In this document: positions 1-12,379 of the stretch, piece by piece
Position numbering within the stretch: the first letter of the stretch is position 1
Layout of the letters: each line of letters begins with the position of its first letter
Source: Tubiluchus corallicola
Lineage: Eukaryota > Animalia > Priapulida
Direction: 5' to 3'
Length of the DNA: 18,197 nucleotides
NCBI GenBank assembly: GCA_030141605.1
Contig: JAQGDQ010002002.1
Coordinates: forward strand, 1-18,197
Translations under genes and position numbers: made by a program
The notes under the pieces: generated by a model
Told to the model about the DNA's origin: nothing
The model's input: only the letters and a program-made list of their open reading frames with translations
Database searches by the model: none

Positions 1-321
1 CAGGAATTTCGAATGTGTTTTGGTAACTCAAATGTGACTTAGGTAAGTCAAATGTAGATGCATTACTTTGAATAAATCAGTAATTAAGTTATTTAAGTGC
101 AAATTAGAAAAAGATAAACCAAAGATAGTGCATCTATTAGTAGGCCTATAACGTTGTTATTTTAACTTAGGAGCAATTATTAAATTGAAATTAAAGAAGA
201 TTAAATTTAACATCCTTAAAAGATTAAAAGATAAAGATACCACCTATCACATTTGAGATACCAATGTCACATTTGACTTGACATGTGTCTACATTTGACT
301 TACCAAAAACGCTTAAGATTT
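1..321. repeat. Left arm of a long inverted repeat (pairs with 1231-1538); cut by the window start
   Basis: Direct reading: 1-321 is the reverse complement of 1231-1538 apart from a few substitutions and a ~13-nt indel near 218-240. Confidence 0.95.
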
Positions 322-360
322 TTTCGTAACAGGGCCTATTTTTGAGTCTAATCTACACAC

Positions 361-713
361 ATTGATTGGTATCCTTCAGTCTCGGAAGACAATGGAATGT
401 GCGCCAGTCAGTTATTGATCACATTGATGGAGCTGCAGCGTCGATCCTTGAACGTCTCCAGGGTGCACGCCTGGGCAAGGTGTATGGAGATCCTGAGTTG
501 CCCAGACAACAGGAACCCCCTCTCTTCCTTTGCCCTCTAGGCGTTGGCTGCTTGTGCAGCTCCTCCGCCTAGTGTCGAGATTCAGTGGCATCCCGCAAGC
601 CTACAGCACCTGGTATTCCTAGGCGATCACCCATCCAAGTACTGACCAGGGTCTACGTTGCTTAACTTCGGTGATCAGACGAGAACCGGCGTTTCCAACG
701 TGATTTGACCGTA
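361..713 (-). mobile_element. 5S rRNA-derived SINE (SINE3 type) with RTE-like body and 3' tail
   Basis: The 5S head (713 to 597) runs without an oligo-T terminator into a GC-rich body. Minus-strand GAGAGGGGGTTCCTGTTGTCTGGGCAAC...CTCCATACACCTTGCCCAGGCGTGCACCCTGGAGA resembles RTE-clade 5' UTRs, and the end GCGCACATTCCATTGTCTTCCGAGACTGAAGGATACCAATCAAT resembles RTE 3' termini (both from recall). No TSD recognised. Confidence 0.7.
597..713 (-). rRNA. 5S rRNA-like sequence (SINE head or pseudogene, probably not a functional rDNA unit)
   Basis: Reverse complement reads TACGGTCAAATCACGTTGGAAACGCCGGTTCTCGTCTGATCACCGAAGTTAAGCAACGTAGACCCTGGTCAGTACTTGGATGGGTGATCGCCTAGGAATACCAGGTGCTGTAGGCTT, a near full-length metazoan 5S lacking about the first 3 nt; A-box and C-box regions retained. 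Confidence 0.92.
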
Positions 714-820
714 TTTTATTAGAATATTATACAAAAAAGTTAATTTTGGAGGTGCGATTGACCGCGGGGAAAGGGAAGACTGTTGAACAGGTTTTACAAG
801 TCAAATATAGATCTACGTTA

Positions 821-1212
821 ACTCAAATGTAGACTTAGGTAGTTCAAATGTGTCTTGGTAACTCAAATGTAGACTTAGGTAGTTCAAATGTGTCTTGGTA
901 ACTCAAATGTAGACTTAGGTAGTTCAAATGTGTCTTGGTAACTCAAATGTAGATTTAGGTAGTTCAAATGTGTCTTGGTAACTCAAATGTAGATTTAGGT
1001 AGTTCAAATGTGTCTTGGTAACTCAAATGTAGATTTAGGTAGTTCAAATGTGTCTTGGTAACTCAAATGTAGATTTAGGTAGTTCAAATGTGTCTTGGTA
1101 ACTCAAATGTAGACTTAGGTAGTTCAAATGTGTCTTGGTAACTCAAATGTAGACTTAGGTAGTTCAAATGTGTCTTGGTAACTCAAATGTAGACTTAGGT
1201 AGTTCAAATGTG
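821..1212. repeat. 40-bp tandem array, ~9.8 copies
   Basis: Unit ACTCAAATGTAGA(C/T)TTAGGTAGTTCAAATGTGTCTTGGTA, itself a diverged dimer of ~20-bp subunits. Confidence 0.97.
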
Positions 1213-1480
1213 TTAACAATGGTTTTCAACAAATCTTAAGCGTTTTTGGTAAGTCAAATGTAGACACATGTCAAGTCAAATGTGACATTGGTATCTCAAA
1301 TGTGGATAGGTGGTAAAGTTTAAGGATGTTAAATTTAATCTTCTTTAATTTCAATTTAATAATTGCTCCTAAGTTAAAATAACAACGTTATAGGCCTACT
1401 AATAGATGCACTATCTTTGGTTTATCTTTTTCTAATTTGCACTTAAATAACTTAATTACTGATTTATTCAAAGTACCTCA

Positions 1481-1948
1481 TCTACATTTGACTTACCTAA
1501 GTCACATTCGAGTTACCAAAACACATTCGAAATTCCTGTGTCTACATTTGACTTACCTAAGTCACATTTGAACTTTCCTGTGTCTACATTTGACTTACCT
1601 AAGTCACATTTGAACTTTCCTGTGTCTACATTTGACTTACCTAAGTCACATTCGAGTTACCAAAACACATTCGAAATTCCTGTGTCTACATTTGACTTAC
1701 CTAAGTCACATTTGAACTTTCCTGTGTCTACATTTGACTTACCTAAGTCACATTTGAACTTTCCTGTGTCTACATTTGACTTACCTAAGTCACATTTGAA
1801 CTTTCCTGTGTCTACATTTGACTTACCTAAGTCACATTTGAACTTTCCTATGTCTACATTTGACTTACCTAAGTCACATTTCAACTTTCCTATGTCTACA
1901 TTTGACTTACCTAAGTCACATTTCAACTTTCCTGTGTCTACATTTGAC
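1481..1948. repeat. 42-bp tandem array with two 60-bp variant units
   Basis: Unit TCTACATTTGACTTACCTAAGTCACATTTGAACTTTCCTGTG; its reverse complement shares TCAAATGT..ACTTAGGTA with the 40-bp array. Confidence 0.97.
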
Positions 1949-2100: not shown

Positions 2101-2252
2101 CGAAGAACAGCTCAAAAAACAGCAGGCAAAGAACACAGGCTTCAATATTGGTTCTTTGTTTCAGTTTAACCCTTTGATCACGAGTTCTTTGAACATTATT
2201 TCTCTGAATGGTGCCTTTTGCACGTTTAAACTGTGAATTTCGCCCTGCTCAC

Positions 2253-2461
2253 CTGAAAGGCTTGGCATTATGGAATTCGAGAAAGTTGAAAGCTTCGAAG
2301 CTGTAGAAAGGAGGAGAGATGTAGCGACCCCACCTCAACCATAGAGGGAAGTTCTCCACGTAGAAACCGCCCATCATCAGATAGAAGAGACTGGCGGTCA
2401 CGCAGAAGGTGATCCCTTGCGACGTGTCCAAGAAGAAAGCACCAGCAAACAAACCAAACGA
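2253..2461 (-). CDS. ABCG: ABCG internal exon (SFGLFAGAFFLD...GGFYVENFPLWLRWGRYISPPFYSFEA...PFR)
   Basis: ttatgttacag|TCG acceptor and TTCAG|gtgagc donor; 209 bp, phase 0 to 2; GGFY...P.WL.W.RY.S...Y.FEA motif of ABCG TM5 and ECL3. Confidence 0.95.
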
Positions 2462-2753
2462 CTGTAACATAAAATAAACAACTTTAACTTTTCAACCCTT
2501 CAATGAAAATATAAAAGCAAGAGTTATTTATAAAATTAGGCAAATATAAATTTAAATGTAAATCTAGCTATGTTGCTTGTAGTTGTTGATGTGTTTTTGT
2601 ATATAAGCGTTTTACTGTTATCATAGTCACCAGTGATATTAGAAGGGATAATTGTAATTATTTTCTAACTTATTATAATAATGTTCATACTGGTCCCTGC
2701 AAATAGAGGGAATTTATGTATATTATGTATGTATTTATGTTAATATGTATAAT

Positions 2754-4829: not shown

Positions 4830-4964
4830 AAATAATTGACTTTTAGCAATGATGCAACAGGCAGATAAGGAAACAAGCTCCTATTTTCTCCATATCATCA
4901 ACATTGCAAGCAGCAAATGAAGCCAAGTGCAAGCAGCAAATGAAGCCAAGTTGAAACCCCTTAC

Positions 4965-5179
4965 CTCCCCTGCAAGTGCGGTCATCATCAGGAAAAACCA
5001 CATCCCCACGAATCCCAGGTAACCATTGAGACTGACCATTGGAAACACGATGAGTAAGTAGACCGTTGGCAGGGTCAAGGTCAGTGGCAACTCGCTGGTC
5101 AGTTTAGCTAAGTAGTAGGCGGAGAGACGGTAGGTTCCCGCTGATCTCTCTTTGTTGAGGACTTCTCTTTCTTCGGGAA
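4965..5179 (-). CDS. ABCG: ABCG internal exon (PEEREVLNKERSAGTYRLSAYYLAKLTSELPL...MTALAGE)
   Basis: ttctcttag|TT acceptor and GAG|gtaagg donor; 215 bp, phase 1 to 0. ER..G.YRLSAYYLAK...ELP is a hallmark ABCG membrane-domain motif. Confidence 0.95.
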
Positions 5180-5280
5180 CTAAGAGAAAAAATTTGCTAA
5201 TGTAAATCTCAGTCAAAGTCAAACTCAGCGTTAGTTAAAACATTTGGAAAATTTAAAGAAAAGTCATCACGTTGATAGAT

Positions 5281-6880: not shown

Positions 6881-6909
6881 TTGATTAAAACGTACATTCT
6901 ATTACTTAC

Positions 6910-7032
6910 AATTCCCTTCCTATCTTTCAGATTCTCCTCTCGTCTGTCCATTTGAAACCACACGAGCCCCGCCATTATTGCCACTGCCACGATCTCAATG
7001 GCGGCCCACTTTGATAAAATTCTGCTTTTTGC
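6910..7032 (-). CDS. ABCG: ABCG internal exon, TM1 (AKSRILSKWAAIEIVAVAIMAGLVWFQMDRREENLKDRKGI)
   Basis: ttcttctcag|GCA acceptor and ATT|gtaagt donor; 123 bp = 41 codons; GLVWFQ and DR.G motifs of the ABC2 membrane domain. Confidence 0.92.
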
Positions 7033-7149
7033 CTGAGAAGAAAATTAGACTTGATTTCACCATTGTTATGGAAATTTAACATCTTTCAAATATTCACATT
7101 TTTTTAAACATTCTATTATTCACAACGACATTTTTCGTGGAATTTTATG

Positions 7150-8458: not shown

Positions 8459-8636
8459 GCAGTCATGCTACTCATGTGTCTGTAGTTTAATAAACACTTT
8501 TCTGTTGTGTGCAGTGCAAATATGTATTATAGATTTTTTATTCTTGTTCATACTTCTGTGCCTAAACTCAATCATAACAAAGTGAGTGATCAACAACTTC
8601 AAACATGACTTTCACACACATATATATATATAATAT

Positions 8637-9201
8637 TGTTGCGGGCACGCTTAGTCAAGGTTGACTTTGCGCATGCGCGTCATTTGCTATAAAAGCAGTG
8701 AGCACGTAGTTTTCTACGTTTGTCACGTCCACTATGTGTGCTGCTCTTTCCAGTGCTTAGCAGTGATTGTCATTTTGGTAGGTACGGCATATTTTTAATC
8801 TAATTAATTATCTTTTGTCTTTCTTTCTTGTGCACTCCTTCCTGGTAGGATGCAACGCGGTCAAACGAAGGCTGACTGCACACCGTCTTCGCGTCCCTCA
8901 ACCCCCTGGCGGCTCCCAGGGGAGGGCTCTGCAACACTGATCCCACTTCTGACACCAGTGTTGGGGAGACCTCTCTGGGAGTCGCCAGCAGTCAAACGAA
9001 GGTTGACTGCTCGGCCGTCTTCGCGTCCGTCGACCGCCTGGCGGCTCCCAGGGGAGGGCTCTGCAACACTGATCCCACTTCTGACACCAGTGTTGCAAAG
9101 ACCTCCCCTGGGAGTCGCCAGCGGTCAAACGGATGCTGACTGCTCAGCCGTCTTCGCGTCCCTCGACCCCCTGGCGGCTCCTAGGGGAGGATTCTGCAAC
9201 A
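8637..9201. mobile_element. LTR-retrotransposon-derived element (Gypsy-like solo LTR or tandem mini-LTR) with two embedded tRNA-Leu PBS sequences
   Basis: Termini TGTTGC...GCAACA; ATAT duplicated at 8633-8636 and 9202-9205; ~132-bp internal tandem units; ATCCCACTTCTGACACCA at 8940-8957 and 9072-9089. Confidence 0.7.
8668..8695 (+). promoter_or_regulatory. Putative LTR Pol II promoter: TGCGCATGCGC (NRF1-type site) and TATAAAA box
   Basis: TGCGCATGCGC at 8668-8678 and TATAAAAG at 8688-8695, near the left end of the LTR-like element. Motif match only. Confidence 0.5.
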
Positions 9202-9459
9202 ATATCTTTCACTGGCTAAGATTCTAAATCTAACGTTAAATTAACTAGTTATAATAACAAGAATTTGTTTCATATCTCAAATTTTGGGACAGTGGAACAG
9301 CATCGGCCTACTCATATCTGCATAATTAGACTCATCGTTTTTTATCCCAAAAGCGTCGAGGTGAAACGCAATAGTCGTATTTCTTAGCGACAATGTTACC
9401 TACTTGTATTAACAGGTTAGACAAATTAGATTTTTCTCATAATGATTTCGTGTTACTGA

Positions 9460-11870: not shown

Positions 11871-12026
11871 AAAAATGTTTTATCTAGCAGTTCCAACCGT
11901 TTAACTAACCGTTTCAGCATGAACATGCTGTACTTTTAAGAAAAATGTTTTATCTAGCAGTTCCAACCGTTTAACTAACCGTTTCAGCATGAACATGCTG
12001 TACTTTTAAGAAAAATGTTTTATCTA
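11871..12026. repeat. 70-bp exact tandem duplication, 2.2 copies
   Basis: 11871-11940 equals 11941-12010, with a partial third copy ending just before the splice donor at 12033-12034. Confidence 0.93.
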
Positions 12027-12034
12027 ATTCTTAC

Positions 12035-12150
12035 GTGAATGAAGTTGCGTTTTGTGAGAACTTTGTATTGAGTCCAGAAAGAAGTGGGCCATTTCTCGTC
12101 ATAGTAATCTTCATACCATTTTCTAATGCTGCGCAGATGGCTTCTCTTTA
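12035..12150 (-). CDS. ABCG: ABCG internal exon (VKRSHLRSIRKWYEDYYDEKWPTSFWTQYKVLTKRNFIH)
   Basis: cttgttacag|TA acceptor and CAC|gtaaga donor; 116 bp, phase 1 to 0. KWPTSFWTQ..VL..R.F is the typical motif just before the ABCG membrane domain. Not in the ORF track; translated by hand. Confidence 0.9.
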
Positions 12151-12379
12151 CTGTAACAAGGAAACCAATAAGCGAGAACTCAAATACATGTCAGAACTTG
12201 TGATAGAAATGCAAAACTGAAAATGGGCTATGAGTTCATAAAAACTATAGCAGAGAAATACGAGCAAACCTATCAGACAATAGTCGCCATTTAATTAATG
12301 ATAATTAATTATTAGTGCAATTAATCGTTTTGCGTTTTAGTTTGGCAAATGATGATTTGTTTTAGAAGCCTGCAAGCTT

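What the first reader, a model, noticed from the sequence alone, without database searches (positions are those of the whole stretch)
8637..9201. LTR-like element with tandem hairpins centred on the exact 18-nt 3' end of tRNA-Leu(CAA)
Seen: TGTTGC...GCAACA termini with an ATAT duplication. A 300-bp first block (8637-8936) ends in GCAACA and is followed twice by [CTG + ATCCCACTTCTGACACCA + G + a ~110-bp TGTTG...GCAACA unit] (units 8959-9068 and 9091-9201). Each 18-mer sits at the apex of a long stem (9038-9071 pairs with 9088-9121, 31/34 matches, 16-nt loop). Known: ATCCCACTTCTGACACCA is the mature 3' end of tRNA-Leu(CAA) including the post-transcriptionally added CCA. Its complement TGGTGTCAGAAGTGGGAT is a primer-binding site used by animal Gypsy elements, and 18 nt is the canonical PBS length. 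Inference, three options: (a) on the minus strand, a tandem ultra-minimal TRIM of ~110-bp LTRs separated by little more than a PBS; (b) on the plus strand, where the TATA box points, a transcript carrying tRNA-primer mimics and U5 dsRNA, i.e. a self-encoded primer or an anti-retrotransposon hairpin/3'-tRF-mimic source; (c) a fossil of fold-back template switching during reverse transcription with the primer sequence retained.
Basis: partly seen in the sequence, partly recalled or inferred. Interest (0 to 1): 0.85.

Follow-up and report, generated by a model that had tools for sequence, protein, structure and literature searches.

The report
LTR with inverted tRNA-primer hairpins
This is the leftover end of an animal jumping gene whose tail holds two back-to-front copies of the last 18 letters of the tRNA that likely primes its copying, each set in a predicted hairpin; other diverged copies of this hairpin exist in the same species, so it is likely a copying error that became a heritable part of the element, with no function shown.

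Summary
The 565-bp element has TG...CA ends, ATAT on both sides and two identical 22-nt spacers holding the 18-nt tRNA-Leu(CAA) 3' end inside 34-bp stems (z -6.6 and -10.5).

Public contigs of the species fix the orientation. The 300-bp block is a multi-copy LTR on the + strand, other copies also end in ATAT, and linear copies carry an imperfect sense PBS behind it. The window's 18-mers are therefore inverted, and match the tRNA better than that PBS does.

Each 133-bp module is the inverted tRNA end, about 30 nt of inverted U5, then the last 81 nt of U5 again. Six diverged X1 contigs and one X3 contig carry the module with the same junctions. None of 148 other Leu-PBS sites has such a hairpin.

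Best reading: a solo LTR whose U5 was likely expanded by a fold-back onto strong-stop DNA and then inherited. A minus-strand TRIM is not supported. An RNA function is untested.

The scan noted related things on other DNA (tRNA read-through junctions, hairpin arrays at fungal LTR ends), but not this layout. New variant; interest moderate.

The parts
8633..8636 (.). Left ATAT (target-site duplication), at the end of a (TA)n run
   Evidence: family preference for ATAT from loose ends behind 9205
8637..8936 (+). Full LTR (U3-R-U5 inferred) of a multi-copy family; TG...CA ends; TATA-like box at 8688
   Evidence: summed contig depth 7,739-19,225 over 8635-8865 against 181.7 on the unique flank
8937..8939 (+). 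CTG: spacer base plus the first two letters of the sense PBS, as in linear copies
   Evidence: linear-copy contigs match up to 8939 and then leave (X3 loose end; X1 record 3)
8940..8957 (+). tRNA-Leu(CAA) 3' 18-mer with CCA, i.e. an inverted PBS; 16 nt form the hairpin loop
8958..8987 (+). Inverted arm 1: spacer base plus reverse complement of the LTR's last ~30 nt
8988..9068 (+). Repeat of LTR nt 221-300 (U5 end), copy 2
   Evidence: 73 of 80 aligned letters identical to 8857-8936
9069..9090 (+). Second 22-nt spacer (CTG + 18-mer at 9072-9089 + G), identical to the first
9091..9120 (+). Inverted arm 2
   Evidence: 27 of 30 complementary to the LTR ends at 8936 and 9068
9121..9201 (+). Repeat of LTR nt 221-300, copy 3; supplies the right CA end; starts at a GCGGTC-type microhomology with the inverted arm
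9202..9205 (.). Right ATAT (target-site duplication), then unique DNA
   Evidence: flank contigs with 0 differences in X1 and X2

Best explanation
The element is a + strand LTR of a multi-copy animal family, likely Ty3/Gypsy, followed by two 133-bp modules (inverted tRNA-Leu 3' end, inverted U5 end, U5 end again); the module likely arose once by a fold-back during reverse transcription and likely spread as an expanded U5, leaving this copy as a likely solo LTR. Shown: anatomy, orientation, multi-copy LTR, ATAT target, diverged copies of the module with the same junctions. [quoted passage not shown] Inferred step 2: it returned to the minus-strand template at a short native inverted repeat in U5 (GCGGTC type) and finished U5. 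Inferred step 3: placed in a 5' LTR upstream of the true PBS, the module lies inside the stretch copied as minus-strand strong-stop DNA, so it becomes part of both LTRs of progeny. Unit number then varies by slippage or unequal recombination, and LTR-LTR recombination leaves LTR+(module)n between one pair of ATATs. The hairpins follow from this layout; no RNA function is needed.
For: Orientation: two different X3 contigs run from the LTR end through the spacer base into a PBS-like stretch and 255 nt of other DNA (loose ends); the mixed X1 cell behind 9201 (2 contigs, agreement 0.62) fits one more. That PBS matches the tRNA end for 7 letters and then has indels, whereas the window's 18-mers are exact, which points to the tRNA itself as the source. 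In Ty3 the PBS is inherited from the element and tRNA-copying plus strands are dead-end products (PMC5371799 section 2.2). Plus-strand synthesis stops at tRNA position 59 in retroviruses (PMC11251516 passages). The second junction sits on a 5-6 nt microhomology. Family: 7 X1 contigs cover the arm, and 6 listed pieces run spacer-arm-U5 with 9-17 differences from unit 2, four of them without gaps; one X3 contig does too (12 differences, depth 2.8). One X1 contig has LTR interior + spacer + unit with 31 differences over 8810-9053, too many for an allele. One goes on for 270 nt unlike the window's flank, and one shows the tandem joint 9188>9056. Arm variants are nested across contigs and the window's units, i.e. 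copied after formation. ATAT: 3 X1 and 4 X3 contigs match through 9205 and then diverge.
Against: No contig shows a module followed by a sense PBS and internal DNA, or a module in both LTRs of one element; step 3 is unobserved. No listed piece spans the element. 0 of 7 X1 arm contigs carry unit 2's letters at 9097-9098, so the window's second arm has no independent exact match. The nested variants could partly be alleles or tandem units of this one locus. An 18-nt boundary is also that of any ordinary PBS, so it does not prove a tRNA copy; an unseen subfamily with an exact PBS could be the source. The three U5 copies differ at 8-10 of 81 places, and copy 3 shares two adjacent letters with an ordinary-LTR contig (depth 407), so they were not simply made in one event or have been reshuffled since. 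No coding sequence of the partner was seen; 'Gypsy' rests on termini, PBS type and the 4-bp ATAT.
Confidence: 0.55

Rival explanations
1. Recurrent accident: each module-bearing copy is an independent aberrant reverse-transcription product with biochemically fixed junctions, integrated at the right end of a cDNA and never itself mobile.
For: The tRNA remnant sits at exactly this end of a linear cDNA (established model). In 4 of 6 X1 contigs the arm has the pairing letter at 9115, and in 2 also at 9101. Aberrant tRNA-copy junctions recur in HIV (PMC12657518 passages), and 6 fetched loci show tRNA read-through.
Against: Both junctions, including arm length, are the same in all listed pieces. Nested shared arm changes. 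0 of 148 other Leu-PBS sites show a fold-back, though these come from other species.
Confidence: 0.15
2. Host DNA replication made the inversion: a fork switched templates at a 3-nt inverted repeat around the PBS of an integrated copy with an exact PBS, and back at the U5 microhomology; later spread as in the best reading or by duplication.
For: Inverted segment between two microhomologies is the classic two-switch signature (own knowledge). The second microhomology is present.
Against: The linear copies seen have an imperfect PBS followed by other letters. Only 2 of 154 Leu-PBS matches carry the needed three letters.
Confidence: 0.15
3. The module is kept because its RNA does something: the LTR promoter makes hairpins that yield siRNA against U5, release an 18-nt tRF-like piece, or pair with the element's own PBS to gate priming.
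For: + strand orientation and a TATA-like box are right. Spacers differ at 0 of 22 while units differ at 15 of 111 (P about 0.04-0.055). 3'-tRFs block LTR elements, and mismatched PBS are proposed to escape them (PMC7472051 section 4.3).
Against: The conservation signal is borderline and from one pair. The stems carry 3-6 mispairs from private changes. The CCA end is buried in the stem, so a precise cut would be needed. The layout explains the hairpins without selection.
Confidence: 0.1
4. Minus-strand tandem TRIM with 110-bp LTRs and a 22-nt internal domain, possibly recombined into a solo LTR.
For: On the minus strand each unit is followed by one base and an exact PBS; units have TG...CA ends; tandem TRIMs exist (PMC7215508 passages; PMC6934838 part 1).
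Against: No purine run of 8 or more in the spacer. Terminal repeats unequal. The unit is a composite of one LTR's U5 in two orientations. At least one other copy also starts from LTR interior.
Confidence: 0.07
5. The inverted 18-mer is a mirror tRNA site standing in for the PPT ahead of a 3' LTR (lead from notes e1-10617911 and e1-10586713).
For: On the + strand the 18-mer lies one base before a TGTTG start, the PPT position; most arms begin like the LTR's first 8 letters.
Against: What follows is inverted U5, not U3. No listed joint links the 18-mer to the LTR start, although 8607-8640 was skipped as a repeat in that call. In the fetched loci the long frames behind the 18-mer mostly run on its own strand.
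Confidence: 0.03

Closest known systems
PbTRIM of the red harvester ant (PMC3532108, passages)
   Same: Non-coding, tRNA-Leu PBS, 4-bp TSD with ATAT most common, many solo LTRs, often in or near genes.
   Different: PbTRIM has two equal LTRs, a sense PBS and a PPT; here there is one full LTR, inverted tRNA ends, no PPT, and partial U5 repeats.
Solo LTRs of Leu-primed animal Ty3/Gypsy elements, e.g. Steamer (PMC8905726, passage); ta-TRIM and lennie (PMC4558846, passages)
   Same: TG...CA ends, Leu PBS type. ta-TRIM also has mostly 4-bp TSDs. ATAT targets are known in the Drosophila 412 and Idefix clades (PMC3276498, passages).
   Different: A plain solo LTR holds no PBS. The clade cannot be named: this PBS precedes both RT-before-integrase and integrase-first elements in the fetched loci.
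HIV-1 aberrant second-strand transfer with tRNA-Lys3 inserts (PMC12657518, abstract and passages)
   Same: Primer tRNA sequence fixed in integrated DNA by an error in plus-strand synthesis.
   Different: There the tRNA copy is in PBS sense, extends past position 58 and marks a deletion in a dead provirus; the word 'invert' has 0 hits in that text. Here it is inverted, stops at 18 nt, is tandem and occurs in several copies.
Ty3 dead-end plus-strand strong-stop DNA (PMC5371799, section 2.2)
   Same: Supplies the two molecules the proposed first junction needs.
   Different: Ty3 copies 12 tRNA letters, and the section describes no fold-back or integration of such products.
Cassandra tandem arrays (PMC7215508, passages) and retrozymes (search listing only)
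   Same: Short tandem LTR-derived units with strong predicted folding.
   Different: Those alternate full LTRs with PBS-PPT internal domains or carry ribozymes; no ribozyme was found here.

Membership tests
LTR of an LTR retrotransposon family | TG...CA termini | tested here: met
LTR of an LTR retrotransposon family | Dispersed copies with a fixed-length target duplication | tested here: met
   7 contigs in two studies match through ATAT at 9205 and then diverge; right ends only, so the pairing of both flanks is seen only in the window
LTR of an LTR retrotransposon family | Sense PBS just behind the LTR in linear copies | tested here: met
   two X3 contigs, probably one X1 contig; imperfect match to the tRNA
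Ty3/Gypsy | gag-pol with Gypsy RT in the partner | not testable with these tools
   no genome held; no relative beyond the PBS among 153 fetched loci (script output partly cut, BLAST table seen) or 53 more
TRIM | Two equal terminal direct repeats | tested here: not met
   300 nt against 110-111 nt, sharing 81 nt
TRIM | PBS in the same sense as the LTR | tested here: not met
   LTR runs on +, 18-mers read as PBS on -
TRIM | PPT before the last repeat | tested here: not met
   no purine run of 8 or more in the spacers on either strand
Plain solo LTR | One LTR between TSDs, no PBS-derived DNA | tested here: not met
   two tRNA-end modules follow the LTR; it works like a solo LTR only if the modules count as U5
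Retrozyme | Self-cleaving ribozyme in the unit | tested here: not met
   Rfam scan gave 8 matches, all miRNA hairpin models below gathering score; own HDV descriptor and hammerhead-core scan found none
tRNA gene or tRNA-derived SINE | tRNA body or Pol III boxes | tested here: not met
   0 tRNA genes; no A or B box pattern
Hairpin-RNA or tRF source | Transcription and small-RNA products | not testable with these tools
   no raw or stranded RNA reads were offered

The most novel reading that the evidence does not exclude
A Gypsy subfamily turned a reverse-transcription accident into a heritable U5 module: its leader RNA carries an exact copy of the primer tRNA's 3' end in a hairpin loop upstream of its own imperfect PBS, and uses it to gate or replace tRNA priming, or to release tRF-like and hairpin small RNAs that silence the parent family.
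Probability: 0.12. Interest if true: 0.8.

Novelty: new variant of a known kind. Interest (0 to 1): 0.45.

Why it matters
If the origin is as proposed, the module is a genomic record of a blunt jump between two plus-strand intermediates that the Ty3 model predicts, in an animal element, and shows that an LTR can gain a heritable tRNA-derived block. It would also suggest that this family inherits its PBS from the element and not from the tRNA, since the two differ. If the module is also used as RNA, it would be a built-in primer mimic or self-silencing device. If neither holds, it is a rearranged solo LTR of interest mainly for annotation, because on the wrong strand it looks like a minimal TRIM.

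Tried and rejected
No genome is held, so no genome-wide BLAST. Exact hairpin pattern in metagenome contigs: 0 hits. A second viral scan gave 53 chance-like hits with no BLAST match to the element. No RNA holder listed; the one run guessed to be RNA, X6, had 0 contigs laid, which is no evidence either way. No contig joint skipping the element (empty site) was listed; the left flank is a repeat and 8607-8640 was skipped, so this proves nothing. The idea that the LTR's own last 108 nt already form the long hairpin was rejected (z -0.4); the arm is only weakly like the LTR interior (score 8 against 48 for the inverted end, shuffle p 0.01). Rfam miRNA matches are generic hairpin hits. Ribozyme and Pol III scans were blank. 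The bacterial promoter scan does not apply to an animal. Candidate ABCG exons at 6890-7044 and 12023-12190 found no family or structure match. Clade assignment from the PBS failed. Summed contig depths were not used as copy numbers. Repbase and Dfam are not among the tools.

Full report
1. Observation. The element is there as described: 8637-8936 (300 nt), a 22-nt spacer, 8959-9068, an identical spacer, 9091-9201, with ATAT on both sides. The second stem pairs at 31 of 34 and the first at 28 of 34 with one gap; z-scores are -10.5 and -6.6 against 200 shuffles. The 18-mer equals the complement of a published probe for the 3' end of mammalian tRNA-Leu(CAA) (PMC7997516, passage seen). The same PBS type is reported for Steamer (PMC8905726, passage). 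There is no tRNA gene in the window and no other copy of the element in it. No host genome is held.

2. Anatomy. Each unit is a composite. Its first ~30 nt are the reverse complement of the block's end (27 of 30 for arm 2), and its last 81 nt repeat block nt 221-300 (73 of 80 aligned letters). The block's own last 108 nt do not fold better than shuffles (z -0.4), so the long stems come from the inverted arms. The repeating module is CTG + tRNA 18-mer + G + inverted U5 end + U5 end, 133 bp (period also found). The arm-to-U5 junction sits on a 5-6 nt microhomology between the continued inverted strand and block nt 221-226. There is no purine run of 8 or more in the spacers on either strand and no ribozyme. 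Minus-strand exons of an ABC-2 type transporter lie to the left; that the element is intronic is inferred.

3. Family evidence. One search listed 6 runs. Four were laid on 8470-9440 (X1, X2 and X4 are one sample, X3 another study) and three on 9056-9270 (X1, X3, X6). All are assembled contigs, and their summed depths are not copy numbers. In X1 the block shows depth 7,739-19,225 over 8635-8865 against 181.7 on the unique right flank, with many variant contigs, so it is a multi-copy family. Three X1 and four X3 contigs match through 9205 and then run into unlike DNA (agreement 0.66 and 0.53), so ATAT is the family's target site. ATAT with a 4-bp duplication is known for PbTRIM (PMC3532108, passages) and for the Drosophila 412 and Idefix clades (PMC3276498, passages).

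4. Orientation. Two X3 contigs that differ from each other leave the LTR end through the spacer base into a PBS-like stretch on the + strand and 255 nt of other DNA (loose ends behind 8939 and before 9083). The mixed X1 cell behind 9201 fits one more, and a 903-nt X1 contig also stops matching at 8939. The LTR therefore runs on +, as the TATA-like box at 8688 suggests, and the window's 18-mers are inverted. The PBS of those linear copies matches the tRNA end for 7 letters and then has indels; the inverted copies are exact.

5. The module has other copies. Seven X1 contigs cover the arm. The six listed pieces run from the spacer through the arm into U5 with 9-17 differences from unit 2, four of them without gaps, and one X3 contig does so with 12 differences at depth 2.8. 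One X1 contig carries LTR interior, spacer and unit with 31 differences over 8810-9053, and an X2 contig bridges 8907-9068 with 18. One unit-1-like contig goes on for 270 nt unlike the window's flank, and one shows the tandem joint. Decomposing the depth sums gives nested arm variants: 9101 shared by four contigs and both window arms, 9115 by two contigs and both arms, 9123 by two contigs and unit 1, a deletion by one contig and unit 1. Arm depth is about 1,000-1,300, a small part of the family. Against over-reading: no piece spans the element; 0 of 7 arm contigs have unit 2's letters at 9097-9098; some variant contigs may be alleles of this locus; and U5 copy 3 shares two letters with an ordinary-LTR contig.

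6. How unusual. The exact hairpin pattern has 0 hits in metagenome contigs. 148 could be scored and 6 were dropped as too near a contig end; 117 of 148 have CA within 4 nt upstream. The best inverted-repeat score between LTR end and the next 150 nt is 25, against 54 and 32 in the window. Many of these loci are redundant and some are chance bacterial matches. Six show tRNA read-through and three show direct U5 repeats after the PBS, so errors at this step do reach animal genomes, but none has this layout. The PBS precedes both RT-first and integrase-first elements (9 same-strand frames among 14 scanned), so it names no clade.

7. Mechanism. Shown: sections 1-5. Inferred: in the Ty3 model the first plus strand copies the tRNA and is a dead end, later plus strands stop at the end of U5, and the PBS is inherited from the element (PMC5371799 section 2.2; PMC7472051 section 4.3). 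In retroviruses the tRNA copy stops at position 59, which is 18 letters (PMC11251516, passages; numbering from own knowledge; m1A58 in this host is assumed, and Ty3 itself copies 12). A plus strand ending at CTG that jumps onto the 3' end of such a dead-end strand writes exactly tRNA 18-mer + G + inverted U5; a return at the microhomology completes the module. Once in a 5' LTR ahead of the true PBS, the module would be copied as part of U5 into both LTRs of progeny, and recombination would leave this solo form. That last step is unobserved; overall confidence 0.55. Rivals: recurrent accidents (0.15), a host-replication switch on an unseen exact-PBS subfamily (0.15; only 2 of 154 matches have the needed three letters), an RNA function (0.10; spacers 0 of 22 against units 15 of 111 differences, P 0.04-0.055), a minus-strand TRIM (0.07) and a mirror site replacing the PPT (0.03).

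8. Known relatives and novelty. It fails three defining TRIM features and is more than a plain solo LTR. It is closest to PbTRIM and to Leu-primed Gypsy solo LTRs in type, and to HIV tRNA-insert proviruses in origin (PMC12657518, abstract and passages). Ten full-text searches listed no paper whose title, abstract start or passages read describe inverted tRNA-end hairpin modules at an LTR end. Most hits were seen as listings only, subscription journals, Repbase and Dfam were not searched, and no supplements were read; TE libraries in supplements could hold this family. Other papers seen: PMC6934838 (part 1 of 5), PMC4558846 (passages), PMC7215508 (passages), PMC8220671 (passages). The scan's notes hold no look-alike sequence but related themes on other DNA: tRNA read-through with a fold-back (e1-10274077, which led to PMC12657518), mirror tRNA sites in plant Gypsy (e1-10617911, e1-10586713) and hairpin arrays at fungal LTR ends (e1-9746201, e1-9723826). 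An HDV-ribozyme note from this genome (e1-10418096) prompted. These are unchecked leads.

9. Verdict. A real, multi-copy and unusual structure: a new variant of a known kind. Interest 0.45. The boldest reading not excluded, a domesticated primer-mimic module, has probability about 0.12 and would merit 0.8.

Noticed in passing
window 2252-2491 and 4884-5234, minus strand: Exons of an ABC-2 type (ABCG-like) transporter gene (Pfam ABC2_membrane). Candidate upstream exons near 6890-7044 and 12023-12190 resemble ABCG text from recall only; if real, the element lies in an intron and host transcription reads its minus strand, where the 18-mers are sense PBS.
   Followed up: partly
window 8470-8600: A very abundant repeat (summed contig depth above 240,000 in X1) ending in the (TA)n run that took the insertion.
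   Followed up: no
window 8778-8848: Donor-like, branch-like, pyrimidine-tract and acceptor-like signals inside the LTR (and the sequence); no contig joint skips this stretch.
   Followed up: partly
window 1-1538: 220-nt inverted repeats (98%) around a 40-bp tandem core, next to a related 42-bp array at 1481-1948; looks like a foldback or MITE element.
   Followed up: no
L035, L041, L049, L052, L077, L119, at the 18-mer: The Leu PBS runs on into further tRNA-complementary text in 6 loci. In L077 a short inverted piece of the LTR end follows it.
   Followed up: partly
L039, L041, L047, behind the 18-mer: A piece of the upstream LTR end is repeated in direct sense shortly after the PBS, like aberrant second-strand transfers.
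   Followed up: partly
L013:3-863 and L032:793-1767: C2H2 zinc-finger arrays on the opposite strand about 400 nt behind a Leu PBS.
   Followed up: no
L121-L153: Several prokaryotic assemblies in genome contigs hold animal-type LTR elements with this PBS (e.g. L141, L143: integrase, SCAN or zinc-knuckle domains), likely host contamination.
   Followed up: no
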